A stretch of 64,000 bases of DNA from Candidatus Bruticola sp. (lineage in GTDB: Bacteria > Vulcanimicrobiota > Xenobia > Xenobiales > Xenobiaceae), in assembly GCA_051874735.1 (NCBI GenBank), contig JBJEGD010000026.1, forward strand, positions 162,247 through 226,246, given 5' to 3'. Below are positions 13,851 to 61,955 of this stretch, piece by piece (the first letter of the stretch is position 1; each line of letters opens with the position of its first letter). Made by a program: the position numbers and the translations under genes. Under the pieces are notes generated by a model. That model saw only the letters and a program-made list of their open reading frames with translations. It was not told the DNA's origin and made no database searches.

Positions 13851-13889
13851 TAAAAACAAAGGCCGCTGCTTGGTACCAAGCAGCGGCCT
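13851..13889 (-). terminator. rho-independent terminator of pseudopilin-like paralog 1
   Basis: Perfect 14-bp stem aggccgctgcttgg / ccaagcagcggcct with a 2-nt loop, followed on the minus strand by ttgttttta. Confidence 0.8.
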
Positions 13890-13902
13890 CCCTTAACAGT
13901 TT

Positions 13903-16275
13903 TTAGTAGTTAGCAAACATGGTCACAGTCACCTTACGATGGGCAGAAGCAACTAAAAGTTTGTTTATGTAGGCAGGATCGAAAGTCATATCTACACTTT
14001 TAGCTTTATAATAAATATTGCCCGTTCCATCTGTCTTAGTGGCTTCTCCATCAGCTTGTGGGTCTTTTCCGTAGGCAACCATGGAGCCAGTTAAATTTAA
14101 GCGGCTATTTTTGCCTATATCGACATTTATGTTGCCGCAGGCGTAGATAACGCCGGCTATTTCCTGATCGGAGTAATTAAGACTCTGGTAGCGACTGAGC
14201 AAACCGGCCAGTTGCTGAGATTTGTAAGTTTCGTAGTTTGAACTTTGCTCCGCTGGAGGAACTAGCTTGTCAGTTAAGTCTACATTAGTAATGGAAGTCA
14301 TTTCCTGATTGCTTCCCCCGTCAGTGGTACTTTGAGAGGCTTCTCTACCCGCGTTATAAATTCTTCGCACATCTCGATAATATTCACAAGTCGTTGGATC
14401 ATGCTTAGTAACACGAGTACCATATTGGTAAGGGCAAGAGCAATAAACAATAGACAGATCAATTGTTTGGTAGTTGCTCAAAGTGTCCTCGCCCAACATA
14501 CCTTCGGAGTAAATTTGGGCTACCATAGCTCTTCCTTTTTCATTATTTATGAAGCCTGTTATGCCTGTTATTTCTTTTCCTAAACCTCTATTCGAACTAC
14601 AGTAGGCTCTATTATTATGTTTACATGATTCGCATCCATCTATAATGTTGATATTGGCGGCAGTTTCAATGTTTATATCATCAAGTTCTGTAGCAGTTAT
14701 TCCTTCGATGATTACAGGTTTTTCGTGAGCTACACCTGTAGTAGGATCTATAGCAATATTGTCATAAGGCTTGTTGGTATCTTTATTGGGAGTAGGGGAG
14801 ATCTCTTCCATATGGGCTGTAGTGTTGTAAATAGTTTCCAAATTTACGTCGCCTTTAGCGTAAATAGAGACACCTACACCGGGATCCGACTCTAAAATAC
14901 TAGGCCCCTGCATGCTTATATTGCCTTCGGCGGTAATGGCTCCGTTGCCAATAGTAGCTCCTGAAATGGTAATGTTGCCAGTGCCAGTTAAAATAGTAGT
15001 ATCAGTGTCTCCCTGATTCTGGCTGGCAAAACCCACAATTGGACGGGTGCCATATTCATTTATATCAGAACGAATTAACAGATCGCCGTCAACATACATG
15101 TTTTTGTCGAACATAATGGCTAAATTGTCACTGTCAACGGTCATATCTTTATTGGTATTGTTGATAACTTCATAACCGCTATCTGGAAGAGTTTGACCGT
15201 AGTAGTATATCTTACCGGGATAATGGTGCAGTTCATTTTTTCCGGAAGAATTTCTTACCCATACATAGGTACCAGCCGACAATTTTGTGTCCTTGGCTGT
15301 GGCTCGAGGAATATCTTCCCAAGAAAGGGCCGTAAAGTTTTTGCCGGAATTGCTTTGTTCACTTTTTACAGTTTTAGGATTTTTGCCATTTACTTTAAAT
15401 GAGTCTCCGTAATAGACGGTTGCTCCATTTTCAACTCTAAAGCTGTTGTCGTTTTTTTTGTTAACTTTCAAATCTACTTTACCCAAAGAGCGCATGTTGG
15501 GAGCGGCAGAACCATCTGAGGAAACTAAAGAAAATGACTCTACTTTGCCTGTAATATTGCCGGCAGCGCTGACTACAGAGTCAGAATTTAAAAAATCGGG
15601 ATCGAGAGATACGTAAAGTTCTAGTATTTGCTGAGCACAGCCGGATTTTTCGTTTATAGGCTCATTTAAGGTGGCTTCACGCACCGCTTCGCCACTGAAG
15701 CCCTCTACGATAAGGTTACAGGTGGCTTTGGGAATAGTGACTGCCTGTACATTGTTGTTGGGAGTAAAAACATTTTTGGTTCCGTCGTTTACATATTTGC
15801 CCATAACTACGCCGTTTTTATCAGCGGGATAGGCAAAGCGAGGAACCGTGTTAAAAAGGTTGTTGGTGGAAATGTAAGGGGAAGCAATTTTCTTAGAGCT
15901 ATTTTTCATACCGTCCAGGCCGTCATCTCCGTCTTCACAGTTAAATTTAATACGGAAGACTGATTTTTTGCCGTTAGTGCTGGTTAAAATGCCCCAGACG
16001 TTTCCTTCTGCTTCTTTTACTTCAAAATTGTTAGTTTTCAGCTCATAAGGGGAAGAGGGGTTTGCTTTCCAAAGAATATTGCTCTGCAGGCGGGTAATAG
16101 CATATTGAGCACCTGATTGAGCTGCTATCAGAGCATTTTCTTTATCGTAAAAATTATTAGTCAGCCTGAAACTGCCGAAGTTAGAGTAAACTACTGAGCT
16201 CAGGAGCATGATAACTAAAACAACTGCTAGCATTGTTGTTATTAATACAATGCCTTTTTTCCGTCCCTTCAGCAT
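13903..16275 (-). CDS. large PilX_N/GspK-like pseudopilin-domain protein, paralog 1 (790 aa)
   Basis: N-terminus MLKGRKKG-IVLITTMLAVVLVIMLLSSVVYSN...ENALIAAQSGAQYAITRLQ has the PilX/GspK layout with no Glu at +5. GGGAGG RBS 5 nt upstream. Paralogous to the next two genes. Confidence 0.7.
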   Translation of the reverse strand: MLKGRKKGIVLITTMLAVVLVIMLLSSVVYSNFGSFRLTNNFYDKENALIAAQSGAQYAITRLQSNILWKANPSSPYELKTNNFEVKEAEGNVWGILTSTNGKKSVFRIKFNCEDGDDGLDGMKNSSKKIASPYISTNNLFNTVPRFAYPADKNGVVMGKYVNDGTKNVFTPNNNVQAVTIPKATCNLIVEGFSGEAVREATLNEPINEKSGCAQQILELYVSLDPDFLNSDSVVSAAGNITGKVESFSLVSSDGSAAPNMRSLGKVDLKVNKKNDNSFRVENGATVYYGDSFKVNGKNPKTVKSEQSNSGKNFTALSWEDIPRATAKDTKLSAGTYVWVRNSSGKNELHHYPGKIYYYGQTLPDSGYEVINNTNKDMTVDSDNLAIMFDKNMYVDGDLLIRSDINEYGTRPIVGFASQNQGDTDTTILTGTGNITISGATIGNGAITAEGNISMQGPSILESDPGVGVSIYAKGDVNLETIYNTTAHMEEISPTPNKDTNKPYDNIAIDPTTGVAHEKPVIIEGITATELDDINIETAANINIIDGCESCKHNNRAYCSSNRGLGKEITGITGFINNEKGRAMVAQIYSEGMLGEDTLSNYQTIDLSIVYCSCPYQYGTRVTKHDPTTCEYYRDVRRIYNAGREASQSTTDGGSNQEMTSITNVDLTDKLVPPAEQSSNYETYKSQQLAGLLSRYQSLNYSDQEIAGVIYACGNINVDIGKNSRLNLTGSMVAYGKDPQADGEATKTDGTGNIYYKAKSVDMTFDPAYINKLLVASAHRKVTVTMFANY

Positions 16276-16511
16276 TTCTGCCTCCCAAAAATAATTATCA
16301 GAAATAAACTGTTAAAAAGAATGGCATAAATCCTCTTAATTATAGGTCTTATTAAAAAAATTATCAATTAAAAAGCATATTACGTATGTTCAAGAAATAA
16401 AAAAAACTTACTTTTCGATGTATGCCTAATAGATGTCTTTTTTACAAAAGATCGCTGCTTTCGTCGTTATTTCTGTTAAGATTGCTGGCCTTAGCTTTAA
16501 AGTTATTGTAA

Positions 16512-16546
16512 AGAAAAAAGCCCCGGATTTATATAAATCCGGGGCT
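16512..16546 (-). terminator. rho-independent terminator of pseudopilin-like paralog 2
   Basis: agccccggattt / aaatccggggct stem, followed on the minus strand by a T6 run (A-run 16514-16519 on plus). Confidence 0.75.
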
Positions 16547-16566
16547 GGATGGGCCTAGTTTGACCT

Positions 16567-19098
16567 TTAGAAGCTGGAGAACATAATCTGTTTAAGCTTT
16601 CTCCGAGCATTCAGCGAAATAAATGAACCCATGTAATCGGGGTCTAGAGTCATACCTACAGATTTGGCTTTTATATTTATTTGACCACCTTCGCCGTTGC
16701 CGGGAGTGCTGTTGCTAGGATCGCCTCCGTAGGCTATCATGGCGCCGGTTAAGTTGAGAGTACTATTAGAACCAAGGTCGGCATTAATATTGCCCCAAGC
16801 GTAGATAACTCCGGAAATATCTTGATCGGAATATTTTATTTCACCGTAGCGGGTCATCAAATCGCTGAGCTGACTCTGCTTTTTATCGCGGAAGTTCTTA
16901 CTGGCCAATTTGCTATCAACGTAGTTTTGCACGTTGCTCAAGTTATCGGGAGTAAACTCTGCATCGGATATTTCAATAGGAGTTACAGTACCATCGTCAT
17001 AGCCGTCATCGTCGTCATCGTCCCAGTTGTCATCATCAAACAGGTATTTTAATAACTTGTTAGTCTTGTTATAAAGATCTTGACGCGCTGTGGCTATTTC
17101 CCGAAACTTATCTTCAGATAAACAGAATTTATTTCGAGTGTTTGAATCTTGAGCCTGCAGATAAGCTGAGTCATCATCTTGTTTGCATTGAATGTTACAG
17201 AAATCTACAAGACAGGTACAGTATGCAAAATCATTATAATACTCTGATGAAGGTTGCCATCCTTGTATATGTTCATGTGAGCCAGCGGCTAGAGCGGCGC
17301 CCTCTTCATATCTGGACTGATAAAAATGGTCGAAGTATTTGTCAGTTTGTTGGGGACTAAAAAGATTGGAATCTATTTGACCATTTTCTCTGTAAGCAGC
17401 TAAGTATATTGACATGAGCGTCCTATATGCATTCAGAGCATCGTTTTTCATGTTTTGAGCTTCTGTAGGATGCTCAAGCCTAACTGTTTTGCCTTTGGGG
17501 TTATTTTTATTAGGTCCTTTTGATTTTCCAGGTTCGCTGGGTTTAACACTAATCGTTGGATCGCTTTCAGCCAACTGAAATTTTTTGGGTTCAGCTTTTT
17601 TTACCGTTTCAGTTACATCTTCAATGGGCAGCAGATTGACGTCGCCTTTAGCGTAAACTGAAACGCCAACGCCAGGATCCGATTCTAAAATGCTGGGCCC
17701 TTGCAAAGAGATGTTGCCAGCTGAAATTAGGGAGCCTCCTCCTAAGGCAGCTCCTTCAATGAAAATATTGTTGTCAGAAGTTATAATCGGATAATTGCCG
17801 GAACTGTCTTTCAGAAAAGCTACAATGGGACGGGAGGCTCCACCCTCTTTATCGTAGCGAATGATAAAAGAAGAGGTTTGGCCATTGGAAGCTACAGACA
17901 GATTATCAGAAATCGTCATAGTCTGACTGCTGAAATCTATTTCTATGCCGGGCATGTTAGCCGTTATTTTTGTTTTGGCTGTATCTGCCGGAATAGAAGT
18001 GCCAGGAGGGAAGTTGCCGTCGTAGCGAACTAATACGTTTGTTTTGCCGCTTTTGTCATCGGGATCTTTTTCCCAGCGATAAGTGCCGGCTGTAACTTTT
18101 ATAAAGGATTTATCCTTGCACTTTTCCTGTACCGATTCCCACGTAACTTGGGCGAAGTTACTGGTGTCTTTGCTGGTAAAAACGGTATAGCTCGATTGCT
18201 TAGGATCTGACAGTTTAATATCGCTGGCTGCAGCTGAGACGATCTGGCCGTCAGACATGTCGAGCAGGCCAGCATTGATGGAAGCACTACCTAAAGTTCG
18301 CATCTTGGGCGCATTGCTGCCTTTAGCATTGCTGGCTCTAATTACATTGGCCTTGATTGTCAAATTACTAGCGGCGCTAGCTACAGAGTCAGTAAATTGC
18401 TCTTCGGAATCTAAAGTTAAATAAGCTTCAGAGCGGACGGAAGTTTGGCCGGATAAGTCGGAGCTGCGCAAAGCGGCTAAATCGTCAAGTTCTAAATCGC
18501 GCAGTGAATTGCCAGCAAAACCTTCAGCTATTAAGTAGCAGCTGGCTTTGCCTAGCTCAAAACTGGGGGAATTCTCAGCTTCAACATATTTTGTACCGTA
18601 GGAGTCGCTACTTTCTTTCAGCCTAATAGTGCCGTCAGCGGAAGCTGTATAAACTTTAACGGGTGTGCTGTTGAATAAATTGTTTACTGAAACGTAAGGA
18701 GAAGCAATTTTGCCTGATAAGCTACTATTGTTGAGGCCATCTAAGCCGCCTGCGCCGTCTTCATAGTTGAATTTTAAACGGAAGAAAGATCTGCGGCCGT
18801 TAGATGTAGTAATACAGCCCAGTACGTTACCTTCTTTTTCAATAACTTCTAGGCCTTTGCTAGTTTCAGAAATATTTTTTGCTTCAGCTGCTCGCCAGGT
18901 AATATTGTCTTGTAGACGAGTAACGGCGTATTGTATACCTGATTGGGCCGCCATAAGGGCTTCTTCTCTTCCGTAAAAGTTAGAGGCCAGACGCATGCCG
19001 CCCAAATTGGAGTACACAACCGAACTTAGTAGCATGATTACTAACACAACGGTGAGCATTGTAGTTATCAACACAATGCCGCGTTTGTTTTTTAGCAT
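16567..19098 (-). CDS. large PilX_N/GspK-like pseudopilin-domain protein, paralog 2 (~843 aa)
   Basis: MLKNKRG-IVLITTMLTVVLVIMLLSSVVYSN... AAGGAGG RBS 9 nt upstream of ATG 19098. The TTG at 19107 abuts the RBS and is unlikely to be the start. Confidence 0.7.
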   Translation of the reverse strand: MLKNKRGIVLITTMLTVVLVIMLLSSVVYSNLGGMRLASNFYGREEALMAAQSGIQYAVTRLQDNITWRAAEAKNISETSKGLEVIEKEGNVLGCITTSNGRRSFFRLKFNYEDGAGGLDGLNNSSLSGKIASPYVSVNNLFNSTPVKVYTASADGTIRLKESSDSYGTKYVEAENSPSFELGKASCYLIAEGFAGNSLRDLELDDLAALRSSDLSGQTSVRSEAYLTLDSEEQFTDSVASAASNLTIKANVIRASNAKGSNAPKMRTLGSASINAGLLDMSDGQIVSAAASDIKLSDPKQSSYTVFTSKDTSNFAQVTWESVQEKCKDKSFIKVTAGTYRWEKDPDDKSGKTNVLVRYDGNFPPGTSIPADTAKTKITANMPGIEIDFSSQTMTISDNLSVASNGQTSSFIIRYDKEGGASRPIVAFLKDSSGNYPIITSDNNIFIEGAALGGGSLISAGNISLQGPSILESDPGVGVSVYAKGDVNLLPIEDVTETVKKAEPKKFQLAESDPTISVKPSEPGKSKGPNKNNPKGKTVRLEHPTEAQNMKNDALNAYRTLMSIYLAAYRENGQIDSNLFSPQQTDKYFDHFYQSRYEEGAALAAGSHEHIQGWQPSSEYYNDFAYCTCLVDFCNIQCKQDDDSAYLQAQDSNTRNKFCLSEDKFREIATARQDLYNKTNKLLKYLFDDDNWDDDDDDGYDDGTVTPIEISDAEFTPDNLSNVQNYVDSKLASKNFRDKKQSQLSDLMTRYGEIKYSDQDISGVIYAWGNINADLGSNSTLNLTGAMIAYGGDPSNSTPGNGEGGQINIKAKSVGMTLDPDYMGSFISLNARRKLKQIMFSSF

Positions 19099-19210
19099 AT
19101 CTGCCAACCTCCTTTACCTAAATTTTTATGCAGCTTTTAGGAGAGTTGTTGTAAAGCCGCTCGGTATTTTTCTTGTTTATGTTGTGTTTGAAGTTTGCTC
19201 CCATAAAAAG

Positions 19211-19278
19211 AGCCTAATCTAGGCTATTACACAATTAGAGCCCGCGTCCTTTATAAAAAATTAAGAAACGTGGGCTCT
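19211..19278 (-). terminator. hairpin region downstream of paralog 3 (weak terminator candidate)
   Basis: Short hairpin agcct/aggct followed on the minus strand by ctttttat. A longer imperfect hairpin agagcccgcg / cgtgggctct has no minus-strand U-tract. Confidence 0.3.
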
Positions 19279-19344
19279 AATTTATTTTTTGTTTAATTTA
19301 GGCTTGATGCTGCGATGCTGGATCGCACAGCATAGCGTAGCTAT

Positions 19345-21738
19345 TTAGAAGCTGGAGAACATAGTCTGTTTCAGCCTGCGTCTAGCATTGGCCGCTAAGA
19401 ATGAACCCATATAGTCAGGATCGAGAGTCATGCCAATACTGCCGGCATTTATAGTAATAGTTCCTTTCTTGTCTTTACCGGGAGTTTTTGTTTTAGGATC
19501 TGCTCCGTAGGCTACCATAGCTCCTGTAAGATTGAGCGTGCTGCTCGCACCTATATCGGCATTGATATTGCCCCACGCGTAAATAACGCCGGAAATATCT
19601 TGATCGGAGTATTTGAGTTGACCGTATCGAGTCATAAGGTCGGCCAACTGAGCTTCCTTATTGTCGCGGAAGTTGTCGCTAGCTAAATCTTTATCGATGC
19701 AGTTCTGCACATTGCTGATGTCGCTCGAGGAAAGCACCGTATCAACTTCAGTGGAACCGGCTACCTGCTCGGTTGGCTCCCAGTTATCTGGATTACGGAG
19801 ATATGTATCTAGCGCTGGCATCAGAGGTTGAGATTGATCTCCTTTATCTCCTCTATGTTTAGACATCGTTAAGGCGTAATACAGTTCCAACGCTTCGTCA
19901 AAGCTCATTTTATCTCCACCTATATAAGGAGTTATACTAAGAGACGATGTAACTTCTGGCTCACCATTTTGAAGCTTTGCACAGTTGCTTGCATACTCTG
20001 CACAGTAGGCTTCAAACATCAATGCGGCTGCTGCGTGGCTAGAGTCGCTGCTAAAGAAATTACTGCACTGTTTATGTTTTGTTGTGATATGACTGATAAT
20101 ATTGTTGAAAACATTAACTTTTAGAGCGTTATATTCGTCATTTTCTTTAAGAACATAAACTTTCTCTGTAGTGCTTCCCCCTGTTGAACCGCCGTTATTG
20201 TCGACTTCTGGAGGAGTGGTAGGCTTTATAGTGTCTTTGACGGTTGAGGTCAAGTCTTCAATGGGCAGCAGATTGACGTCTTTTTTAGAGTAGATGGAGA
20301 CGCCTACGCCGGGATCTGACTCCAAAATACTGGGCCCCTGCAAAGAGATATTGCCTTCAGAAGTAATAGAGCCGCCTCCCAAAGTGGCCGCCTGCAGAAA
20401 GATATCGCCTGAAGAACTGATAATGGGTGAAGTTTTTGTTTCAGGATTTTCTAAAAGAGCAACAATAGGACGGGAAGCACCGCTGTCCTTGTCATAGCGC
20501 ACAATAAAAGAGGCGTCTTTGCCGTCGGCTACTATCAGAAGGTTCTGCGATATTTTCATAGTTTGAGTATCAAAGTCTATGGTCATTCCTGGCAGACTCG
20601 ATACAACTGTCGATTTGGCGTCTGTGGGAATAGACTCGCCAGGAGGATAGATGCCTTGATAGCGTTTCAAAACATTCTTTTTGGTGTCAGGGTCAACGCT
20701 CCACACATAAGTTCCTGATTGCAACTCTGTGTACGTCTGGCCGGGAGAGTCTGCTTTGGTGACGTCATCCCAGATAATCTGAGCAAAATTGCCCGAATCG
20801 TTGCTACTTTTTGCCGTATAGTTAGCTTCTTTGTTAATGGATTGGCCGTTTATGCTGTAACTGCAGCCTTCCCCATAGTAAAATTGGCCGCTGGGAAAAT
20901 CTATGCTGTTGCTTTGTATAGTCAGATTCTTTAAGGTGCGGATTTTGGGGGCTGAACCGCCTTTAGCATTATTTACGCGAAAAATTGAAGAATTTGTTTT
21001 TAAATCGTTGGCTGCACAAGCTACAGAATCGGTAAACTGCTCATCTGCTGCTAAGTCCAGATAGCTTTCTACGGTTACACAGATGGCATTGCAGCGCTCT
21101 TTTGAAATTTTGAGCATATCTGTCAAGCTCATATCGCGCACTCCGTCGCCAGCGAAGCCTTCTACAACAAGATAGCAGCTCGATTTATCCAGCACAAAAT
21201 TGCTGGAATTTTCGGCTTCTTGGCGGTCTTTACCGTACTCATCTTTGTAAGTGTTCAGCTTGAGAGTGCCATCTTTTGATGCTGTATAGACTTTTGTCGA
21301 TATGCTGCTGGTAAGGTTATTAACAGAGACATAAGGAGAGGGAATTTTGGCTGAGTCTGAACTATCGTTCAGGCCATCAAAGCCATTTTCGCCGTCTTCA
21401 TAATTAAATTTTATGCGAAAGAAAGAGCGGCGTCCATTTTTGCTGTCGATCATGCCGACAACATTGCCGTTATTCTCAATGACGCTTAGACCTGTGCTGC
21501 TATCCGAAATAGTTTCGCTGTCGTCGCAGCCTTTCCAAGTGATGTTGTTCTGCAGCTTAGTTATGGCGTACTGTACGCCTGACTGGGCAGCCATGATGGC
21601 CTGTTCGCGTCCGTAAAAATTGGAAGCCAGTCTCATACTGCCTATATTTGAGTAAACTATTGAGCTAAGCAGCATAATTACCAACACTACCGTTAGCATG
21701 GTAGTGATTAGTACTATGCCTCGTTTGTTTTTCAACAT
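19345..21738 (-). CDS. large PilX_N/GspK-like pseudopilin-domain protein, paralog 3 (~797 aa)
   Basis: MLKNKRG-IVLITTMLTVVLVIMLLSSIVYSN... AAGGGGG RBS 5 nt upstream of ATG 21738. The ORF is open to ATG 21753. Confidence 0.7.
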   Translation of the reverse strand: MLKNKRGIVLITTMLTVVLVIMLLSSIVYSNIGSMRLASNFYGREQAIMAAQSGVQYAITKLQNNITWKGCDDSETISDSSTGLSVIENNGNVVGMIDSKNGRRSFFRIKFNYEDGENGFDGLNDSSDSAKIPSPYVSVNNLTSSISTKVYTASKDGTLKLNTYKDEYGKDRQEAENSSNFVLDKSSCYLVVEGFAGDGVRDMSLTDMLKISKERCNAICVTVESYLDLAADEQFTDSVACAANDLKTNSSIFRVNNAKGGSAPKIRTLKNLTIQSNSIDFPSGQFYYGEGCSYSINGQSINKEANYTAKSSNDSGNFAQIIWDDVTKADSPGQTYTELQSGTYVWSVDPDTKKNVLKRYQGIYPPGESIPTDAKSTVVSSLPGMTIDFDTQTMKISQNLLIVADGKDASFIVRYDKDSGASRPIVALLENPETKTSPIISSSGDIFLQAATLGGGSITSEGNISLQGPSILESDPGVGVSIYSKKDVNLLPIEDLTSTVKDTIKPTTPPEVDNNGGSTGGSTTEKVYVLKENDEYNALKVNVFNNIISHITTKHKQCSNFFSSDSSHAAAALMFEAYCAEYASNCAKLQNGEPEVTSSLSITPYIGGDKMSFDEALELYYALTMSKHRGDKGDQSQPLMPALDTYLRNPDNWEPTEQVAGSTEVDTVLSSSDISNVQNCIDKDLASDNFRDNKEAQLADLMTRYGQLKYSDQDISGVIYAWGNINADIGASSTLNLTGAMVAYGADPKTKTPGKDKKGTITINAGSIGMTLDPDYMGSFLAANARRRLKQTMFSSF

Positions 21739-22078
21739 ACTGACCCCCTTCATTGGATTATTTATAGGCTTAAATGTATACGAAATTTTATGTCAGATGT
21801 TAATGTTCTGGGTAAAGTGTGAAAACTAAAAAGGCTCATGGCCTATCCTGCTCTCATTCTACAATAGCTTGGTTATTATTGCCAACTTAATATTGTTAAT
21901 TTTCATCCCTTTATAAATGTTCTTAACTTTTTCTTTATGTTGAGAGGAGTTCAATTTTGAGCTTTTGAGATGTTGGCAAGCTGCTATATGTTACAAAGGA
22001 GTGAGATTTTTGCAAAAATAATAAAATAGATAAAAAATTGGCTTGTCTAAGCAGAAAAAAGTTTGTAAATTTAGGATA

Positions 22079-25000
22079 ATGAATAGTAGGACTTTTTTCG
22101 TCAGCTTAGCGATTTTCTCGATCCCACTGACTGGGTCGGGCTCTTCTTGGGCTGTCGGCGCAGATTCAGCTCGTCAAGAAGCTTCCGGGGCTGAACAAAG
22201 GCATGAGGCCTCTGAAGTCCTAAGGTTAAATGGTCTAGAAAAGACTTCTGTCGTCACCTATACAGAAAAGAGTGAGGAATCGATGAACATAAACGTAGAA
22301 CGTTCTTCCGACTTATTCCGCGCCAATTCCGTGGTGCAGAATAATGGCTCTGCCGAGTCTAAGCAGATGACTGCAAGTACCTCTGCTCCGGCCGTTCCTG
22401 TGGACAGTTTCTCTTTAAACAGTACCGAGAGCAAAGAAGCTGTTGCTGGTCTTCCTAAGCTTAATGCTGCTCAGGTAAAAGCTGAAAGTACCGCGGTACA
22501 GCCTGAAAACACCGATAAAAAACAGGTTATATTCCAGTTCGACAGTCGTGGCTGCTCCCAGACTGAGCTCAGCAACATCGGGCTCAAAGGCTCCTTCAAT
22601 AATGAGACTGGTCTTTACGATCAGCATTGGAATGGCGATAAAGTTATTCCTATGCACGACGACGGTCTCAACGGCGACGCCGTAGCTGGCGATGGAGTTT
22701 ATACTGCTGCTGTCGATTTAAAAACCGGACAGAATCAACAGTTTAGTTGGGGCGTGGTTGGAGATATTACTGGCAAAGACGGTAAAGTGCAGAACGCTCA
22801 GTGGTTAGTTATGAGCGAAACTAATCCTAATTTCAACTTGAACGATTCTCCGGTACAAACTTATGCGCCTATTCAGACTCATCTCTTTGGTGTGCACAAA
22901 GAGGGAGAAGATGGCGTCCGCTTCCAAACTTGGTCCCCTGAAGTTGGTAAAGGCGACTTAGGCAACTACAAGCTCTACGTAGAAGTAAGTAATCCTCAGA
23001 CTGGCGAGATCGAAGAGCGTCTGCCCATGGAGAAAAATGAGCAGAACGGAGTTTGGACTCTCACCCAGAACGATGGTTGGAGCAAACTTAAAGGTAAAAC
23101 TTATCAGTATGCAGCCCTTAACGATAAAGGCGAGGTACTTAAGAATAAATGGGGCGGAGAAGTACGCTATTCTGATCCGCATGCCCGTTATCTGCAGGGC
23201 GAGCAGCGTGGCTTAGAGAGAATCTTCGTCGATCCCGTAATGGGCTTCGAGGTCGGTTGGTATGATGACAGCGGTAAAGGCGGTCCCAACTACGCCGATA
23301 ATCCTCAGTGGGGACGTTTCACAGTCGATTCTCATCCTAACGCGGATAGCGTTCGCTTAGTGTTGCGCGATGAAAACGGTAAGCAGCTCAATAAGCAGGA
23401 ACTGTTGGATCGTCTCGGCAAACCTGAGCGCATTCCTTACGATCAGGCCTCTCCGGAAGATAAGCATGACGTCGATGTTTTGCGCAACTGGAAGCTCGAT
23501 CAAACTGAGCCGATCGATAAATATTCCTGGATTAACAGCGTCAACGAAGATGGTTCTATCGATATGAATCGCGTGGACAGCCCTGGAGCCGGCACTGCTT
23601 GGGTTACAGCTGTAAACAACTTCCCTAAACTGATCGGCATGCAATATGAATATCAGGTTGTAGAGGATGGCAAGTTAGTAGGCGACGTCAACGGAGATGG
23701 CAAACTCAGTAGCCAGGAGCGTATAGCTACTCCTTTCAACGATCCTTATACTAACGTAATTCAGCCTAAGCCCGGCTCTGCCCGCAAGTCTCTGATTCGC
23801 GAGTCTAGCTTCGAGTTCCGTTATGACAACGTACCCAGACGCCAAACTAATCAGAACAACTTTGTAATTTATGAAGCTCATGTCGGTTCATTCATGAGTT
23901 CTAAAGACAACGCTGTGCCGGCCACTTTTGAAGACATGATTAATAATCTCGATTATTTCGCTTCTTTAGGAGTAGATACTATCGAGTTAATGCCTACAAA
24001 CGAGTTCGGCGCCAAACGCGACTGGGGTTATACTCCCGATTTCTATTACGCCGGTGCGGCTAGTTACGGTTTTGAAATGGATCGCCAAGAGGCCATCGAT
24101 CGCAAGCTGATTACTGACGACGAACAGCCTGGAGCCAAGAGTGTCTGGATATCTGGTACAGATGCTATGAAGCTCTTCGTCGATGAGAGCCATAAACGCG
24201 GTTTCAACGTCATGGCCGATGTAGTTTACAACCACACTTCTGGCAAGCCCGATGCCGATGATCCTCTGGGGCGTATCGATGGCGATAAGCGCTCTTTCTT
24301 CAACTGGTGGCAGAAAGGTGAGTCTTACACTCCTTGGGGAGCTAAGCCCAATTTTGCTAATCAAAACGTAAAAGATTTCTATTCCGACAACGCGGTTCAG
24401 CAAGTTGCCGAATTCGGCTTCGATGGTATCCGCTTCGACTTTACGCAGGTTCTCCATTCTACAGGTAATTCTGCCGAGCAGATTGAAGGCATGAACACGT
24501 TGCGTCAGATTAACCGCTCTTTGCGTTTAATTAAGCCCGACGTTTACACTGTAGCTGAAGACTTTAGTGGCAGTTGGCTGGTTGCTGCTGATATGGATAA
24601 GTCTGAAACTCAGGGTTATGGTCCCGGCAGCTGGGAAAAGAAAGGCATGGGCTTCAGTGGCGTTTGGAATGACCGTTTCCACGATGATCTGTTGGAAATG
24701 GCTCAGGGACGCGGAAGTGCTGATCGCTTGATGGAAGCAATTACCTGTCACGTCGGCGTTACCGACTGGAGCAGAGCGGTAACTTACGCTCACAGTCACG
24801 ATGAAGTTGGTAATACTGGTAACTGGATGCACCGCGGCGCTGCAGCTTCCAAAGATGACGAAGCTGTCAAGCAGCCCTTCCCGCGTTCTATTGCCCGAAC
24901 TGCCTCTGCTATAACTTTGACAGGTCCTGGTGTGCCTATGCTCTTCCAGGGTGAAGAGTTCTTAGCTAATAATGACTTTAAACATGGTCTGACTTCTACC

Positions 25001-25546
25001 TGGGGCGCCGACATGGATTGGACTAAGTTCCCCGTCACTCCCGATAAGTTAGATAACTTTGCTAGAGTGGCTTCCATGGATATGTCCTCTCGTGAAGTCG
25101 AACGTTCTCGTATGAGTGCCGATGAGCAGAAGCTCTTCGATCGTTATTGTGAGATGAGTCCTGAGGAGAAGAATAAAGCTGAAGATATGGCCAACCAGGT
25201 CGGTCAGTTTATTCTCACTCGCGACTTAGTCGCTTTGCGCCGCACTTCTCCGGCTCTTAATGCGACCGGTAATATCAGCCGTGTTTACACCCATAACGAC
25301 GACAGAGTTTTGGCTTGGAAACGTGACGACGGTGGCTCCGATGAGTTCGTGGTTATTTCCAACTTCGCCAATACTGATCGTCCTGGCTACCGTATGGAGC
25401 TTCCTCCCGGTCAGTGGAAAGAAGTCTTCAATACTAACGCCCGCTGTTATGGCGGCAGCGGTACCGGTAACGGTGGCAACTCTGTAACTTCTTACGGTGG
25501 CGTATTCCTGCCTGCTGGCGGTACCATCGTTTTGAAGAAGCAGTAG
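22079..25546 (+). CDS. secreted GH13 (alpha-amylase family) alpha-glucan-active enzyme with CBM48/E-set-like modules
   Basis: Signal peptide MNSRTFFVSLAIFSIPLTGSGSSWA. CBM48-like segment LFGVHKEGEDGVRFQTWSP...GVWTL. GH13 regions: NFVIYEAHVGSF, GFDGIRFDF (nucleophile), VAEDFSG (acid/base), YAHSHDEVGN. The ORF is open from TTG 22043. Confidence 0.85.
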   Translation: MNSRTFFVSLAIFSIPLTGSGSSWAVGADSARQEASGAEQRHEASEVLRLNGLEKTSVVTYTEKSEESMNINVERSSDLFRANSVVQNNGSAESKQMTASTSAPAVPVDSFSLNSTESKEAVAGLPKLNAAQVKAESTAVQPENTDKKQVIFQFDSRGCSQTELSNIGLKGSFNNETGLYDQHWNGDKVIPMHDDGLNGDAVAGDGVYTAAVDLKTGQNQQFSWGVVGDITGKDGKVQNAQWLVMSETNPNFNLNDSPVQTYAPIQTHLFGVHKEGEDGVRFQTWSPEVGKGDLGNYKLYVEVSNPQTGEIEERLPMEKNEQNGVWTLTQNDGWSKLKGKTYQYAALNDKGEVLKNKWGGEVRYSDPHARYLQGEQRGLERIFVDPVMGFEVGWYDDSGKGGPNYADNPQWGRFTVDSHPNADSVRLVLRDENGKQLNKQELLDRLGKPERIPYDQASPEDKHDVDVLRNWKLDQTEPIDKYSWINSVNEDGSIDMNRVDSPGAGTAWVTAVNNFPKLIGMQYEYQVVEDGKLVGDVNGDGKLSSQERIATPFNDPYTNVIQPKPGSARKSLIRESSFEFRYDNVPRRQTNQNNFVIYEAHVGSFMSSKDNAVPATFEDMINNLDYFASLGVDTIELMPTNEFGAKRDWGYTPDFYYAGAASYGFEMDRQEAIDRKLITDDEQPGAKSVWISGTDAMKLFVDESHKRGFNVMADVVYNHTSGKPDADDPLGRIDGDKRSFFNWWQKGESYTPWGAKPNFANQNVKDFYSDNAVQQVAEFGFDGIRFDFTQVLHSTGNSAEQIEGMNTLRQINRSLRLIKPDVYTVAEDFSGSWLVAADMDKSETQGYGPGSWEKKGMGFSGVWNDRFHDDLLEMAQGRGSADRLMEAITCHVGVTDWSRAVTYAHSHDEVGNTGNWMHRGAAASKDDEAVKQPFPRSIARTASAITLTGPGVPMLFQGEEFLANNDFKHGLTSTWGADMDWTKFPVTPDKLDNFARVASMDMSSREVERSRMSADEQKLFDRYCEMSPEEKNKAEDMANQVGQFILTRDLVALRRTSPALNATGNISRVYTHNDDRVLAWKRDDGGSDEFVVISNFANTDRPGYRMELPPGQWKEVFNTNARCYGGSGTGNGGNSVTSYGGVFLPAGGTIVLKKQ

Positions 25547-38088: not shown

Positions 38089-39540
38089 TTACTTTACTTC
38101 CTGTCCTTGATAATCGTATTTCATGGCGCCTTCGATATTGAGACGCGCTCCGCTGCCAACTTTTCCTTGAAGACTTTCCAGTTGATCCCCTCCCTTAGTG
38201 AGGCGGGTCATCAGCTCGTCGTTGCTCATGTTGGGATCCATAGCTAGAAGCAGACCGGCCGCGCCGGTAACATGGGGAGTGGCCATAGAAGTGCCGCTGT
38301 ATACCGCATAACCTCCGCCAGGAACGGTAGATAGGATGTCTTTACCGGGAGCGGCAATATCAACATTCTTTTCTCCGTAACAAGAGAAACCGGCCAGTTG
38401 ATCGTTGCGGTCTGTAGCTGCTACAGCCAAATTATTCGGCAGATTGTAGTCAGAAGGATAGTGAGGATGAATGTCATTATTCGTGCCGCTGTTGCCGGCA
38501 GACATCATGTGCAGGGCTTCAGAAGAGTTGCGGAAAGCCTCTTCGATAGCAGGGTTAGCCGGGCCGCCTCCCCAAGAATTGGAGGTCAAGCGAGCACCCA
38601 CAGAATTGGCGTAGTTAATACCGCGGATAATTGAAGCTGCATCAGCGCCGCCGTCGTCACTGAATATTTTAACGGGCAGTATTGAAGCTGACCAGTTGAT
38701 GCCACTGATACCCTCGCCATTGTTGCCTACAGCACCAATCGTACCGGCTACGTGAGAACCGTGACCTTGGCGATCCATGACGTCGCCATTTTGCAGGCAG
38801 GCGTTCCACCCGTGATAGTCGTCGATAAAGCCATTGCCGTCGTCGTCAATACCGTTTCCGGGAATTTCCCCCGTGTTGGTATAAATATTGGCGGCTAGAT
38901 CTGGGTGAGTAATATCGACTCCGGTATCAATAACTGCAATTAGCGGACCTTGGCCGTTGGGCATACCGGTAGTAATCTGCCAGGCTTCAGGAGCGTGAAT
39001 ATCGGCGCGAGCTGTACCATTTTTACTACCATCGTTATACATATCCCACTGTTGTTCGAATTTGGCATCGTTGGGGACCTTGCCTTCAGCCAGCTGCTCT
39101 CTAGTGAATTCCTGACCTTTAACTACATCTTCAGCGTGATAAATAGTGTTAGGAACAGCAAATTCGATGTTGGGATCTTGCTGCATTTGGGCTAAAGCTT
39201 CTTCTGTGGTCATGCCTTCCGGAAGCTGGAGTTGCATCATTTCGCCCATATCGGCAGCTTTAACGCGTCCGGGGATTTGGAAATTGTCTAAAACTTTAGC
39301 GCCGTATTTCTCGGCGACATTCTCTGTGTTGGCGCTGGCCAACAAGGAGCCTTTAGTTTTAATTATAACTTGGCCGGGAACAAATTCTCCTAAGGAACTT
39401 TTTTCGGAGCCTAAGCTGACAGAATCGGAGCCTACTTGCGGATTGGTATTCTCAGATTTAGCTTCAGGCTGACCGGCAACCTGAGGAGTGTAAGTGCTCT
39501 GCATCTGGTTGATGCTGTTGGAGCCAATATTAGAGATCAT
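38089..39540 (-). CDS. subtilisin-like serine protease (S8) with I9-like pro-domain, paralog A
   Basis: Asp VIDTGVD, His HGSHVAGTI, Ser GTSMATPHV. Pro-domain-like PGQVIIKTKG...AEKYGAKVL...EEALAQMQQDPNIEFAVPN. AGGAGG RBS 4 nt before the ATG. The N-terminus is polar with no Sec signal. Confidence 0.9.
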   Translation of the reverse strand: MISNIGSNSINQMQSTYTPQVAGQPEAKSENTNPQVGSDSVSLGSEKSSLGEFVPGQVIIKTKGSLLASANTENVAEKYGAKVLDNFQIPGRVKAADMGEMMQLQLPEGMTTEEALAQMQQDPNIEFAVPNTIYHAEDVVKGQEFTREQLAEGKVPNDAKFEQQWDMYNDGSKNGTARADIHAPEAWQITTGMPNGQGPLIAVIDTGVDITHPDLAANIYTNTGEIPGNGIDDDGNGFIDDYHGWNACLQNGDVMDRQGHGSHVAGTIGAVGNNGEGISGINWSASILPVKIFSDDGGADAASIIRGINYANSVGARLTSNSWGGGPANPAIEEAFRNSSEALHMMSAGNSGTNNDIHPHYPSDYNLPNNLAVAATDRNDQLAGFSCYGEKNVDIAAPGKDILSTVPGGGYAVYSGTSMATPHVTGAAGLLLAMDPNMSNDELMTRLTKGGDQLESLQGKVGSGARLNIEGAMKYDYQGQEVK

Positions 39541-39710
39541 GCTGCCTCCTCAATAATTTTTTTCTGTGCACATTCGACTTTTAGCCTTTTTTATTCTCTT
39601 GAAGCTCGTTTGTGCCTTCCTGCTCAGTAAAGGCCTCAAGATAAAAAAGTCGCATATCTTGCTGTTTGATGGCTATAGTCAGCAAATAATTATGTTGTTT
39701 ACAGACAACC

Positions 39711-41210
39711 TTACTGCTGAGCGATATGATACTCGTATTCCATGGCTTTATTGACATTCAGGCGGCCGCCGGAAGAAACTACGTTTTGTAGTCCGTCAAT
39801 CTTATCAGAACCTTCTAGAAGTCGAGTTTTGAGCTCATCGTTGCTCATGGTGGGATCCATAGCCAAAAGTAATCCGGCCGCACCGCTTACATGAGGAGTT
39901 GCCATAGAAGTTCCGCTCTTAGAGGCGTAACCTCCGCCTGGAACTGTGGAGTAAATGTCCTTGCCTGGAGCTGCTATATGGACTGATTCTTTGCCATAGC
40001 AGGAGAATTTGGCTAATTTATCGTTGCGATCGGTAGCTGCTACTGTAATTGAGTTATGTAAAGGATAACTGCCTGGATAGTGCGGCACTTGATCGTTATT
40101 GTCAGCAGAGTTGCCCGCTGCCATAATGTGCAAGGCCTTAGAGTGGGCGAAGGCGTCGCGTATGGCCAAGTTGGCCTCTCCACCTCCCCAGGAGTTGGAA
40201 GTTATGCGAGCACCGTTGTTGGAAGCGTAATTAATGCCGCGTATAATGGCAGCTGCATTAGTGCGTCCGTTGTCGTCAAAAATTTTAACGGGCATAACAG
40301 TTGCCTGCCAATTGACGCCGACAACTCCTTGACCGTTATTACCTTCTGCCGCAATGGTGCCGGCGCAGTGGGTGCCGTGAGAGTGGACATCCATGGGATC
40401 GCCGTTGTCGCTAAAGGCGTTGTAGCCGTGGACGTCGTCAACTACACCGTTGCCGTCGTCGTCTATGCCGTTGCCGGGGATTTCGCCGGGATTAGTCCAA
40501 ATATTATTAACTAAATCGGGATGGTTATAATCGACGCCGGTATCGATTACTGCAATAATTGGTCCTTGTCCGTTGGGAAGGCCAGTAGTTTTCTGCCAAG
40601 CTTGTGTCGCTCCGATATCGACGCCGGGAGTGCCGCCGTCCTGACCGTCGTTCTTTAACCCCCAAAGTTTTGAGTCAAGATCGTTAGGGACTTTACCTTC
40701 AGAGGTGGAGAGTTTAGCGCTAGTTGTTCCAGCTTCGGACGGTACCTCATCTTCTAAGGTATATATAGAGTTGGGGACGGCATATTCAATCTCAGGGTCT
40801 TCCTGCATAACGGCTAAGGCTTGAGCTGTAGTCATGCCTTCTGGTAGTTGCATATGGAGCATCTCACCCTGCATACCCTTGAAGATGCTGGCTTTGTTAT
40901 TAAACTTTTCTAGAACAACTGCACCGTATTTTTGGGCTATGTTGCTGGTACTCTGCATGAGAGTACCTTTTGTTTTGACAATAACTTGACCGGGTACGTG
41001 GGGCTCGAGATCCTGTTCTAATTGGGCCGCTTTAGTACTGGAAGCAGCTAAAGCTTTTTCCAGTTTAGTTTGAGGGCGAATGTCTACCTGATCGGCCTGT
41101 GAAGCCTGACAGTAAACGGTTTCCTCTTGGGGGGGCTGCGCTTTGGCTATAGTAGCAGTGCTGCCCGGCTGCAGATTGGATATGTAAGCAGAGCCAATAC
41201 TGTTGATCAT
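39711..41210 (-). CDS. subtilisin-like serine protease (S8) with I9-like pro-domain, paralog B
   Basis: VIDTGVD, HGTHCAGTI, GTSMATPHV. Start set at ATG 41210 (MINSIGS...) by a GGAGG RBS 4 nt upstream and by alignment with paralog A. The ORF is open to 41252. Confidence 0.88.
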   Translation of the reverse strand: MINSIGSAYISNLQPGSTATIAKAQPPQEETVYCQASQADQVDIRPQTKLEKALAASSTKAAQLEQDLEPHVPGQVIVKTKGTLMQSTSNIAQKYGAVVLEKFNNKASIFKGMQGEMLHMQLPEGMTTAQALAVMQEDPEIEYAVPNSIYTLEDEVPSEAGTTSAKLSTSEGKVPNDLDSKLWGLKNDGQDGGTPGVDIGATQAWQKTTGLPNGQGPIIAVIDTGVDYNHPDLVNNIWTNPGEIPGNGIDDDGNGVVDDVHGYNAFSDNGDPMDVHSHGTHCAGTIAAEGNNGQGVVGVNWQATVMPVKIFDDNGRTNAAAIIRGINYASNNGARITSNSWGGGEANLAIRDAFAHSKALHIMAAGNSADNNDQVPHYPGSYPLHNSITVAATDRNDKLAKFSCYGKESVHIAAPGKDIYSTVPGGGYASKSGTSMATPHVSGAAGLLLAMDPTMSNDELKTRLLEGSDKIDGLQNVVSSGGRLNVNKAMEYEYHIAQQ

Positions 41211-41335
41211 GGAACCTCCGTTGATACTGCAAATAGACTTTGCAGTGAACAAACAATTCTACATTCTTTAGTGTAGGCTAAAATCGTTTTCTACGTGTAA
41301 TCATGAAGTTAACGTTTCGCCGTTATAGTTGGCGG

Positions 41336-49361: not shown

Positions 49362-49445
49362 GCAGAAAGAATAGTCTTTTTTTATAGATATATCTCAACA
49401 ACTAAATCATATATCAATTTACAAAAAGAAAGGTTAGCTAGTTCT

Positions 49446-51842: not shown

Positions 51843-51876
51843 AAAATACAGCATTGTCATTTGAGGTTTATAAAAA

Positions 51877-58632: not shown

Positions 58633-58866
58633 TATCGATAATTTATTGAAGAGGAGCCAAACTTAGTTAAGTTTAATACTTCATTCTGTATGAAGTGCTG
58701 GTCCCCGTACTGATCGTATTCTTTGCATATAAAGTTGTGCAGATAAAAAAGCTGTATCTAGAACAGAACTGCGGCCTCTCGTCTGCAGATTGTATAAGTT
58801 ATATGATGACAATGCTTAGTTAACGTCAATGATAGAGGGCCAAATTTTTTTTAATTGGTAAGATGG

Positions 58867-60525: not shown

Positions 60526-60561
60526 TTAACTAAAGCTATCGATTTCTATCAGGAGATATAT

Positions 60562-61944: not shown

Positions 61945-61955
61945 GAGGGAGAACT

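What the first reader, a model, noticed from the sequence alone, without database searches (positions are those of the whole stretch)
13903..21753. Tandem array of three ~800-aa paralogs with a PilX/GspK-type pseudopilin N-terminus and no assembly machinery nearby
All three proteins begin M-L-K-(G/N)-(R/K)-K-(K/R)-G followed by IVLITTML(A/T)VVLVIMLLSS(V/I)VYSN. Next comes NFY..E.A(L/I)(I/M)AAQSG.QYA(I/V)T(R/K)LQ. That is a short basic leader, a Gly, a ~20-residue hydrophobic helix and a helical cap, which is the layout of PilX_N/GspK minor pseudopilins. As in GspK, there is no Glu at +5 after the Gly. They are about four times larger than PilX or GspK. Each gene has its own strong RBS. Paralogs 1 and 2 also have their own strong intrinsic terminators (13851-13889, 16512-16546), so these look like separate transcription units rather than one operon. 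No ATPase, platform, secretin or prepilin peptidase gene occurs in the 64 kb. The only precedent I know for a large domain carried by a PilX-like minor pilin is Thermus ComZ, a tip-located DNA receptor. These could therefore be alternative filament-tip modules. I cannot place the body of the proteins in any named family.
Basis: partly seen in the sequence, partly recalled or inferred. Interest (0 to 1): 0.8.

Follow-up and report, generated by a model that had tools for sequence, protein, structure and literature searches.

The report
Tandem giant pilus-tip (PilX/ComZ-like) paralogs
Three neighbouring genes in a gut-associated Xenobia (Eremiobacterota) bacterium encode very large, fast-diverging versions of the protein that caps type IV pilus-like filaments, probably giving the cell alternative filament tips, although the filament machinery itself could not be located for this organism.

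Summary
Three intact minus-strand paralogs of 790, 843 and 797 aa have a near-identical PilX_N-type N-terminus with no Glu at +5. Each has its own RBS. Two have strong terminators. No type IV filament machinery gene lies in the 64 kb.

- Pfam PilX_N passes its threshold for two of the three.
- An AlphaFold2 model (pLDDT 86) has only one significant PDB match, Thermus ComZ, the beta-solenoid tip pilin.
- The family is restricted to Ca. Xenobia (Vulcanimicrobiota/Eremiobacterota).
- In high-GC environmental relatives the large gene almost always sits in a triad with a about 157-aa GspI-like prepilin and a about 262-aa GspJ/PulJ-like prepilin, both with Glu5. There are several triads per genome, and some have a T2SSF platform gene attached.
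- In low-GC lineages (Ca. Bruticola is host-associated), including this window, the partners are not adjacent. The large gene is instead amplified into syntenic tandem arrays of 3-7 copies, with pseudogenes and a hypervariable helical insert.

Best reading: these are alternative GspK/PilX-class filament caps or adhesins. Partner pilins, prepilin peptidase and ATPase were not found for this lineage, so that step remains inferred. This is a new variant of a known kind, of moderate interest.

The parts
13903..16275 (-). Paralog 1 (790 aa), a large PilX/GspK-class minor pilin. Positional ortholog of Bruticola P0060 (79% identity).
16567..19098 (-). Paralog 2 (843 aa from the ATG at 19098). Ortholog of Bruticola P0030/P0031 (68% identity).
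19345..21738 (-). Paralog 3 (797 aa from the ATG at 21738). Ortholog of Bruticola P0002/P0003 (73-74% identity). This is the protein that was modelled.
16111..16257 (-). P1 N-terminal pilin helix (Pfam PilX_N match, aa 7-55, 20.5 bits, below threshold).
18934..19083 (-). P2 N-terminal pilin helix (Pfam PilX_N match, 27.5 bits, above the gathering score).
21574..21723 (-). P3 N-terminal pilin helix (Pfam PilX_N match aa 6-55, 29.5 bits; NCBIfam GspK N-terminal match E 1.4e-5).
19744..20274 (-). P3 hypervariable insert (aa about 489-665). It is mostly alpha-helical in the model, 11-31% identical between paralogs over most of it (57% between P2 and P3 at its start), and has many indels.
16966..17637 (-). 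P2 hypervariable insert (aa about 487-710).
14302..14844 (-). P1 hypervariable insert (aa about 478-658).
13858..13891 (-). Intrinsic-terminator-like hairpin after P1 (15-bp stem followed by a T-run).
16519..16546 (-). Intrinsic-terminator-like hairpin after P2 (12-bp stem followed by TTTTTTCTTT).
16339..16367 (-). Sigma-70-like promoter upstream of P1 (TTGATA-17-TATAAT, 11 of 12 matches).
21856..21885 (-). Sigma-70-like promoter upstream of P3 (TTGGCA-18-TAGAAT, 10 of 12 matches).

Best explanation
The three genes encode giant members of the GspK/PilX class of minor (pseudo)pilins. This is the Glu5-less subunit that sits at the very tip of a type IV filament and primes its assembly.

Predicted architecture. 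Each protein has a long N-terminal pilin helix and a small pilin beta-sheet. A large ComZ-like beta-rich (beta-solenoid-type) body follows, and this body carries a hypervariable helical insert.

Ancestral arrangement. In environmental Xenobia the large subunit is made together with a GspI-like and a GspJ-like prepilin as a three-gene tip module. There are several modules per genome, and some have their own platform protein.

Arrangement in this lineage. In the low-GC lineage that includes this window (Ca. Bruticola is host-associated), the cap gene has been uncoupled from its partners. It has been amplified into a tandem array of separately expressed, anciently diverged paralogs.

Most likely function. 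Each paralog is inserted in the membrane by its N-terminal helix and is probably cut after the Gly by a prepilin peptidase. It then nucleates a filament and ends up as its cap. The variable insert would provide a different binding specificity per paralog, giving alternative adhesive or receptor tips.

Shown versus inferred.
- Shown: homology, fold, gene neighbourhoods in relatives, and the pattern of conservation.
- Inferred: cleavage, incorporation at a filament tip in this organism, and the ligand.
For: N-terminus.
- Pfam PilX_N is above threshold for P2 and P3.
- The N-terminal 60 aa match NCBIfam GspK.
- There is no Glu5.

Fold.
- The AF2 model, built with an 86-sequence alignment, has pLDDT 85.9 and pTM 0.74. 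It shows a 63-residue N-terminal helix, a 4-stranded sheet, a large beta body, a helical insert and C-terminal beta strands.
- The only significant PDB fold matches are the two chains of ComZ entry 6qvi (E 1.2e-5 and 3.2e-5). The next, non-significant hits are an ice-binding beta-solenoid and a tapirin. The ComZ paper reports the same ice-binding relationship for ComZ's own solenoid (PMC6561018).

Gene neighbourhoods in relatives.
- All 44 loci seeded with the 262-aa prepilin also carry a big-family gene and a 157-aa prepilin next to it.
- When the search was seeded instead with the big family, 13 of the 16 high-GC loci longer than about 5 kb again show the partners.
- Both partners carry G|F(S/T)LxE prepilin motifs.
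- The 157-aa protein matches XpsI/GspI full length (E 1.8e-5).
- JGI names several 262-aa members PulJ, and their profile hits the Thermus type IV-like pilin TTHA1219 (5g23), E 1e-4.
- T2SSF genes lie inside or beside triads in L017 and L044, and within 10 kb in L033, L034 and L054.

Conservation.
- The N-terminal helix is 73-90% identical between paralogs, while fourfold-degenerate sites there are only 26-41% identical. This indicates purifying selection rather than gene conversion.
- The same helix is nearly invariant across the low-GC (Bruticola-type) homologs.

Other.
- The three paralog classes keep their order and position in Ca. Bruticola.
- The phylum makes type IV pili (PMC9758169). 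Another Vulcanimicrobiota MAG has T2SSF, T2SSE and PilM at one locus.
Against: - No partner prepilin, prepilin peptidase, ATPase, platform or secretin was found for this lineage. None occurs in the 64-kb window or in 285 kb of low-GC loci around such arrays. None could be traced to it by profile searches of the big protein collections. Those searches are limited by the word index and by missing names, so this is absence of evidence only.
- P1 is below the Pfam threshold. The GspK model is matched only over the N-terminal helix, at 18-25 bits against a cutoff of 130.
- The ComZ match has low global TM scores (0.15-0.20). I could not inspect coordinates to verify that the insertion point is the same.
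- There is no sequence-level match to ComZ.
- An 800-aa cap may be too bulky to pass a secretin. The window's TolC/HlyD/AcrB genes suggest an outer membrane.
Confidence: 0.6

Rival explanations
1. Exapted surface proteins. In the low-GC (Bruticola-type) lineage the PilX-type helix now serves only as an uncleaved signal anchor. The proteins would act as cell-surface or periplasmic adhesins or enzymes, independent of any filament.
For: In the low-GC lineage the partner pilin genes and platform genes that accompany the family elsewhere are absent from every array neighbourhood examined. No machinery was found for this lineage.
Against: A plain membrane anchor needs only hydrophobicity. Here the whole helix, including its amphipathic AAQSG.QYA part, is kept nearly invariant across anciently diverged paralogs and across species. 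That fits specific helix-helix packing. All three paralog classes stay intact and in position between species.
Confidence: 0.2
2. ComZ-like competence-pilus DNA receptors. The proteins would cap a DNA-uptake pilus and bind extracellular DNA.
For: ComZ is the only significant structural match. ComZ binds DNA and pairs with a GspI-like pilin (PMC6561018). In cyanobacteria one of the two beta-solenoid PilX subfamilies is linked to competence.
Against: There is no sequence similarity to ComZ. A repertoire of 3-7 paralogs with a hypervariable insert, and up to 6 or more triads per genome, is not what a single conserved ligand such as DNA predicts. No competence genes lie nearby.
Confidence: 0.08
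3. Tips of a periplasmic type II secretion pseudopilus (true GspK analogues). The alternative caps would select different secreted substrates rather than acting as surface adhesins.
For: The N-terminus matches the GspK model. The partners match GspI/XpsI and are named PulJ by JGI. The size of the cap argues against passage through a secretin. The window organism appears to be diderm, since it carries TolC, HlyD and AcrB genes.
Against: Scores against the GspK, GspI and GspJ equivalog models are far below their cutoffs. No GspC, D, L or M genes were seen near any triad. The cultured member of the phylum has type IV pili and pilM/D/T/C genes. Another MAG has MshEN-T2SSE and PilM_2, which are T4P-type.
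Confidence: 0.12

Closest known systems
ComZ of Thermus thermophilus (PDB 6qvi), the tip-located competence pilin
   Same: Both have a large non-Glu5 pilin with a GspK-like pilin domain and a big beta-rich (solenoid-type) body. ComZ is the only significant Foldseek PDB hit. Both are partnered with a GspI-like small pilin (ComZ with PilA2; this family with the 157-aa prepilin in relatives).
   Different: There is no detectable sequence similarity. This family is about 250-300 aa longer and has a hypervariable helical insert. It is multi-copy. DNA binding is unknown. The global TM score is low, so domain arrangement differs or is uncertain.
Cyanobacterial beta-solenoid PilX proteins (PilX-Com, and PilX-EPS/HpsA), bioRxiv 10.64898/2026.02.12.705559
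   Same: The terminal Glu5-less PilX has a bulky solenoid proposed to act as the tip plug in place of PilY1. There are several minor-pilin sets per genome, and PilX co-occurs with a specific PilV partner.
   Different: The phylum differs and no sequence relationship was tested. Here the cap gene alone is amplified in tandem without partners. Such an arrangement did not come up in the parts of that preprint that I read.
GspK-GspI-GspJ tip trimer of type II secretion (and PilX-PilV-PilW of type IVa pili)
   Same: There are three subunits of increasing size. Only the largest lacks Glu5. They are encoded together in the environmental triads. The N-terminal helix matches the GspK and PilX_N models, and the small partner matches GspI/XpsI.
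   Different: The large subunit is 2-2.5 times longer than GspK and carries a beta body instead of GspK's alpha-helical insert. Equivalog cutoffs are not reached. No GspH/FimU-like fourth subunit was noticed. The triads are dispersed and multi-copy rather than part of one gsp or pil operon.
Verru_Chthon cassette (TIGR02596/02598/02599/02600) of Verrucomicrobia. The description of the cassette is from my own knowledge of the TIGRFAMs annotation.
   Same: It is a multi-copy cassette of prepilin-type small proteins plus a very large protein. The 157-aa partner hits TIGR02598 (protein B) at E 4.6e-5 over most of its length.
   Different: That score is below the cutoff (23.6 against 51.4 bits). The large protein and the 262-aa partner give no NCBIfam hit to cassette proteins D or C. 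The cassette here has three genes, not four.

Membership tests
PilX_N-containing minor pilins (Pfam PF14341) | Match to the PF14341 profile at or above the gathering score (25.5 bits) | tested here: met
   P3 scores 29.5 bits and P2 27.5 bits, so both pass. P1 scores 20.5 bits and falls below the threshold, but its N-terminus is 73-75% identical to the others.
GspK/PilX-class tip (pseudo)pilins | Class III signal-like N-terminus: a short basic leader, a Gly, a hydrophobic helix of about 20 residues, and no Glu at +5 | tested here: met
   The sequence MLKNKRG|IVLIT(+5)TML is read directly from the sequence.
GspK/PilX-class tip (pseudopilins) | Encoded together with GspI/PilV-like and GspJ/PilW-like Glu5 prepilins | tested here: inconclusive
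   This is met for environmental homologs: 44 of 44 loci seeded with the 262-aa prepilin, and 13 of the 16 high-GC loci longer than about 5 kb that were seeded with the big family. It is not met in the window or in any low-GC array locus. Partners elsewhere in the genome could not be checked.
GspK/PilX-class tip (pseudo)pilins | Cleavage and N-methylation by a prepilin peptidase, and a filament machinery present in the same genome | not testable with these tools
   Only 64 kb of a 230-kb contig is available. Profile searches for platform proteins and partner pilins returned no hit attributable to Ca. Bruticola.
T2SS GspK (NCBIfam NF037980 equivalog) | Full-length match at or above 130 bits | tested here: not met
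   Scores are 18-25 bits, and only model positions 2-61 (the N-terminal helix) are matched.
ComZ-like / beta-solenoid PilX | Pilin fold carrying a large beta-solenoid body | tested here: inconclusive
   Foldseek gives 6qvi_A at E 1.2e-5 and probability 0.99 over 581 columns, but TM scores are only 0.15-0.20. The model is beta-rich between residues 139-500 and 713-796. I could not inspect coordinates to confirm solenoid geometry or the insertion point.
ComZ-like / beta-solenoid PilX | Sequence homology to ComZ | tested here: not met
   The family profile against all PDB sequences gives no ComZ hit up to E = 10.
Verru_Chthon cassette | Matches to TIGR02598 (B), TIGR02599 (C) and TIGR02600 (D) above their cutoffs | tested here: not met
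   Only the 157-aa partner hits protein B, at 23.6 bits against a cutoff of 51.4. There are no hits for the large protein or for the 262-aa partner.
PilY1/PilC tip adhesins | PilY1/Neisseria_PilC beta-propeller domain | tested here: not met
   No such Pfam hit appears at E <= 1, and no PilY1 structure is among the Foldseek hits.

The most novel reading that the evidence does not exclude
Low-GC Xenobia of the Bruticola type (Ca. Bruticola is host-associated) run one type IV filament machine with a repertoire of interchangeable, separately transcribed giant caps. The tandem array would be a birth-and-death 'tip-adhesin library'. Its hypervariable helical insert would set what each filament binds (host glycans, mucus, other microbes or prey). 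The I/J partners would be shared from elsewhere or dispensed with altogether. Environmental relatives would go further, carrying 4-6 or more complete tip modules, some with their own platform protein.
Probability: 0.3. Interest if true: 0.65.

Novelty: new variant of a known kind. Interest (0 to 1): 0.5.

Why it matters
Minor-pilin tip complexes decide when a type IV filament is built and what it binds. Almost all that is known about them comes from Proteobacteria, Thermus and, recently, cyanobacteria.

This family shows a third, phylum-specific elaboration of the ComZ or beta-solenoid-PilX idea. It also shows a clear evolutionary switch:
- In free-living Xenobia there are multi-copy three-gene tip modules, sometimes with a dedicated platform protein.
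- In the low-GC lineage, which includes the host-associated Ca. Bruticola, there are cap-only tandem arrays with a hypervariable insert.

If the caps really are interchangeable, they would be the main surface-specificity determinants of an uncultured gut phylum. They would also offer a simple system for asking how one filament machine chooses among alternative priming complexes.

The result also gives annotators a name for about 120 large proteins, most of them unnamed or called 'hypothetical', for about 100 clusters of the 262-aa partner, and for their 157-aa companions.

Tried and rejected
- A single-sequence AlphaFold run was useless (pLDDT 34). The run with an alignment was used instead.
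- HMM searches of the family profile against PDB sequences gave only a chance-level Aip56 hit.
- I looked for partner pilins of the gut lineage in several ways, all negative or untraceable:
  - a pattern scan of GTDB genomes with the 262-aa pilin returned only high-GC Xenobia;
  - a word-indexed profile search gave no Bruticola hit;
  - a full HMMER search of 1.84 billion representatives gave 156 strong clusters, but the low-GC-looking ones carry no names and could not be placed;
  - local HMM searches of 285 kb of low-GC loci found nothing.
- I looked for machinery:
  - the GspE Walker A motif was absent from the first 54 loci;
  - a T2SSF profile search gave no hit attributable to Bruticola;
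  - looking up the window's left-end protein brought in about 5 kb beyond it on a related contig, showing only an ECF sigma/anti-sigma pair and one large protein.
- Gene conversion as the cause of the identical N-termini was rejected. Synonymous sites there are saturated.
- PilY1, a vWA-type tip adhesin and membership of the Verru_Chthon cassette were rejected, because no domain or model hits reached threshold.
- Rfam and tRNA scans of the window found nothing.
Full report
**Observation**

The window carries three consecutive minus-strand genes:
- 13903-16275 (P1, 790 aa);
- 16567-19098 (P2, 843 aa from the ATG that follows an AAGGAGG site);
- 19345-21738 (P3, 797 aa from the ATG that follows AAGGGGG).

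Start sites were read. The proteins align end to end. P1 is 39% identical to P2 and to P3, and P2 is 53% identical to P3.

All three begin with a short basic leader, a Gly, and the nearly identical helix IVLITTML(A/T)VVLVIMLLSS(V/I)VYSN...AAQSG.QYA. The residue at +5 is Thr, not Glu.

The scan finds strong hairpin-plus-T-run terminators after P1 (13891-13858) and after P2 (16546-16519), and only a weak one after P3. Good -35/-10 matches lie upstream of P1 and P3. The factual part of the finding is therefore correct.

**Surroundings in the window**

Pfam was run on 43 of the larger ORFs, the three paralogs and the ORF cut by the window's right end included. Apart from the paralogs it shows housekeeping and transport genes:
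- an M48 peptidase, Hsp90, an MFS and a POT transporter, and a C-N hydrolase;
- a 1167-aa amylase-like protein, an amidase, arginine decarboxylase and two subtilases;
- three RelA/SpoT paralogs;
- a TolC-HlyD-AcrB efflux set.

Regex scans found no other prepilin-type N-terminus, no GspE-type Walker A motif, no T2SSF motif and no A24 peptidase motif. 'No machinery nearby' is therefore confirmed for these 64 kb. The TolC-type protein suggests a diderm envelope.

**Family membership of the N-terminus**

- Pfam PilX_N (PF14341) matches residues about 5-55. P3 scores 29.5 bits and P2 scores 27.5 bits, against a gathering score of 25.5. P1 scores 20.5 bits.
- NCBIfam's GspK model matches the same 60 residues, with E values from 1e-5 to 1e-3. 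This is far below its full-length cutoff.

The N-domain is of the PilX/GspK kind, but the proteins are not GspK orthologs.

**Taxon and distribution**

A search of 5.8 billion proteins returns 119 relatives. All named ones come from Ca. Bruticola, UBP9, Ca. Xenobia, Eremiobacterota or unclassified 'bacterium' MAGs. NCBI already calls the closest ones 'PilX N-terminal domain-containing pilus assembly protein'. Bruticola belongs to Vulcanimicrobiota (Eremiobacterota), class Xenobia.

The window is syntenic with contig JBJEGC010000007.1 of Ca. Bruticola sp. GCA_051874695.1. In both, the same amylase gene lies on one side, and the C-N hydrolase, POT, MFS and Hsp90 genes lie on the other. The Bruticola array holds five intact members of the family and one frameshifted copy (208 + 590 aa).

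Orthology follows position:
- P1 matches the last Bruticola gene (79%);
- P2 matches a duplicated pair (68%);
- P3 matches another duplicated pair (73-74%).

Flanking genes are 71-99% identical, with amylase, Hsp90 and POT at 94-95%. The paralogs therefore evolve faster than most of their neighbours.

Other low-GC relatives show the same habit:
- four to seven tandem copies in L056, L060 and L061;
- fragments in L010;
- a singleton in L055.

**The key context evidence**

In distant, high-GC Xenobia the large gene is immediately followed, or preceded, by two small genes of about 157 and about 262 aa. Their N-termini are canonical prepilin motifs with Glu5, for example RSG|FSLAEVLL and RQG|FTLLEVIV.

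I seeded a scan of GTDB genomes with the 262-aa protein. It returned 44 loci, and every one carries the full triad. Several triads occur per genome. For example, there are six on five contigs of Ca. Xenobia AMX-MBFR-33, and four each in three other MAGs.

I then seeded a metagenome scan with the large family instead. It gave the same dichotomy:
- 13 of the 16 high-GC loci longer than about 5 kb show the partners;
- every low-GC locus (GC 0.41-0.49) shows arrays or single copies without partners.

The small partners have these affinities:
- The 157-aa protein matches XpsI/GspI over its full length (E 1.8e-5). It also matches the 'Verru_Chthon cassette protein B' model (E 4.6e-5). Both are below the cutoffs.
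- JGI annotates several 262-aa members as PulJ. Their profile's best PDB hit is the Thermus type IV-like pilin TTHA1219.

In five loci a T2SSF (PilC/GspF) platform gene lies within 10 kb. In L017 an FHA-FHA-T2SSF fusion sits between the large gene and the small ones. In L044 a T2SSF gene directly follows the triad.

This is the gene-neighbourhood signature of a GspK/I/J-type or PilX/V/W-type tip or priming complex. It links the family to type IV filament machinery by more than the N-terminal motif.

**Fold**

A single-sequence prediction failed. With an 86-sequence alignment, AlphaFold2 gives pLDDT 85.9 and pTM 0.74. The model has these parts:
- a helix spanning residues 2-64;
- a four-stranded sheet (residues 76-110);
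- a long beta-rich region up to about residue 500;
- a mostly helical region (about 500-705);
- long beta hairpins and a final strand (713-796).

Foldseek against the PDB returns only two significant hits, both chains of ComZ from Thermus thermophilus (6qvi; E 1.2e-5 and 3.2e-5). An ice-binding beta-solenoid and a tapirin follow at non-significant scores. The ComZ paper describes exactly this combination: a GspK-like pilin domain with an inserted solenoid whose nearest relative is an ice-binding protein, a tip location, and binding to a GspI-like partner (PMC6561018).

A 2026 preprint shows that all cyanobacterial PilX proteins carry such a solenoid. It proposes that the solenoid replaces PilY1 as the tip plug. 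It also shows that different minor-pilin sets prime different filaments on one machine (10.64898/2026.02.12.705559).

Two caveats apply. The global TM scores are low (0.15-0.20), and I could not open the coordinates to check the insertion topology. There is also no sequence-level similarity to ComZ.

**Pattern of constraint**

Identity between the paralogs varies by region:
- 73-90% in the first 50 residues;
- 68-72% in a GNIS.QGPSILESDPGVGVS block;
- 60-79% near the C-terminus;
- only 11-31%, with many indels, over most of the helical region.

Fourfold-degenerate third positions are 26-41% identical even within the N-terminal 70 codons. The duplications are therefore old, and the helix is held by selection on the protein rather than by gene conversion.

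The same helix is almost invariant across the low-GC (Bruticola-type) species and paralogs. A mere membrane anchor would not need this. A helix that must pack into a filament core and dock on the assembly platform would.

**What remains open**

I could not show that this organism has partner pilins, a prepilin peptidase or an assembly ATPase.
- Word-indexed profile searches with the 262-aa pilin and with Xenobia T2SSF proteins returned no hit attributable to Bruticola.
- The exhaustive HMMER search found 156 strong clusters of the 262-aa family, but it carries no names.
- Local HMM searches of 285 kb of low-GC loci were negative.

At phylum level the machinery exists. Cultured Vulcanimicrobium alpinus is piliated and has pilM/D/T/C (PMC9758169). 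Another MAG has T2SSF, an MshEN-T2SSE ATPase and PilM_2 at one locus.

**Conclusion**

The three genes are best explained as GspK/PilX-class, ComZ-like giant cap subunits of a type IV filament. In this low-GC lineage (Ca. Bruticola is host-associated) they have been uncoupled from their ancestral three-gene module and expanded into a birth-and-death array. The variable helical insert probably provides alternative binding specificities (confidence about 0.6).

The rivals are:
- exaptation as filament-independent anchored surface proteins (about 0.2);
- type II secretion pseudopilus tips (about 0.12);
- ComZ-type DNA receptors (about 0.08).

This is a new variant of a known kind. The class (beta-solenoid PilX/ComZ) and the N-domain annotation already exist. 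I did not find a description of the Xenobia-specific family, its conserved triad, its multi-copy nature or the cap-only tandem arrays. Literature searches on Eremiobacterota, Xenobia, UBP9 and Bruticola found none.

Noticed in passing
window 46866-54213 (+): Three tandem long RelA/SpoT homologs (831, 798 and 778 aa), each with HD, RelA_SpoT, TGS and ACT domains. The synthetase-domain score falls from the third copy (137 bits) to the second (88) to the first (35). This suggests sub-functionalised or degenerate copies.
   Followed up: partly
window 38089-41252 (-): Two tandem subtilases (483 and 513 aa), each with a fervidolysin-like N-terminal prodomain.
   Followed up: no
window 58855-64000 (+): A TolC-like OEP gene, a HlyD-family adaptor and an AcrB-family pump (the pump is cut by the window end). 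This is a tripartite efflux system, which implies an outer membrane in this Xenobia lineage.
   Followed up: partly
L006 7349-9729 (Ca. Bruticola sp. GCA_051874695.1); L010 4973-6404: Broken family members lie inside the arrays. In L006 a 208-aa N-terminal piece is followed by a 590-aa remainder in another frame. In L010 there are 310-aa and 152-aa fragments. This indicates gene birth and death within the arrays.
   Followed up: partly
L017 7846-9531: A platform protein with two N-terminal FHA domains fused to T2SSF. It sits between the large cap gene and the two small prepilin genes of a triad. This is an unusual architecture that suggests phospho-threonine-dependent control of that module.
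   Followed up: no
loci L012, L015, L019, L021, L025, L028, L030, L031, L037, L038, L043, L044, L050-L053: MAGs titled 'uncultured Burkholderiales' or 'Selenomonadaceae' carry Xenobia-type triads. These record titles are probably taxonomic misassignments.
   Followed up: no
window 22043-25546 (+): A 1167-aa amylase-family protein with an N-terminal extension of about 600 aa that has no Pfam match. It is 95% identical to its Bruticola ortholog and is transcribed divergently from the array.
   Followed up: no
window 43791-44453 (-): A 220-aa Pro/Ser-rich protein with a signal-peptide-like N-terminus and no Pfam match.
   Followed up: no
L004 12330-15782: In one environmental locus, a 1150-aa VIT-vWA protein lies immediately downstream of the large cap gene, convergently oriented. 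vWA proteins are common pilus-tip adhesins, so the link may be functional.
   Followed up: no
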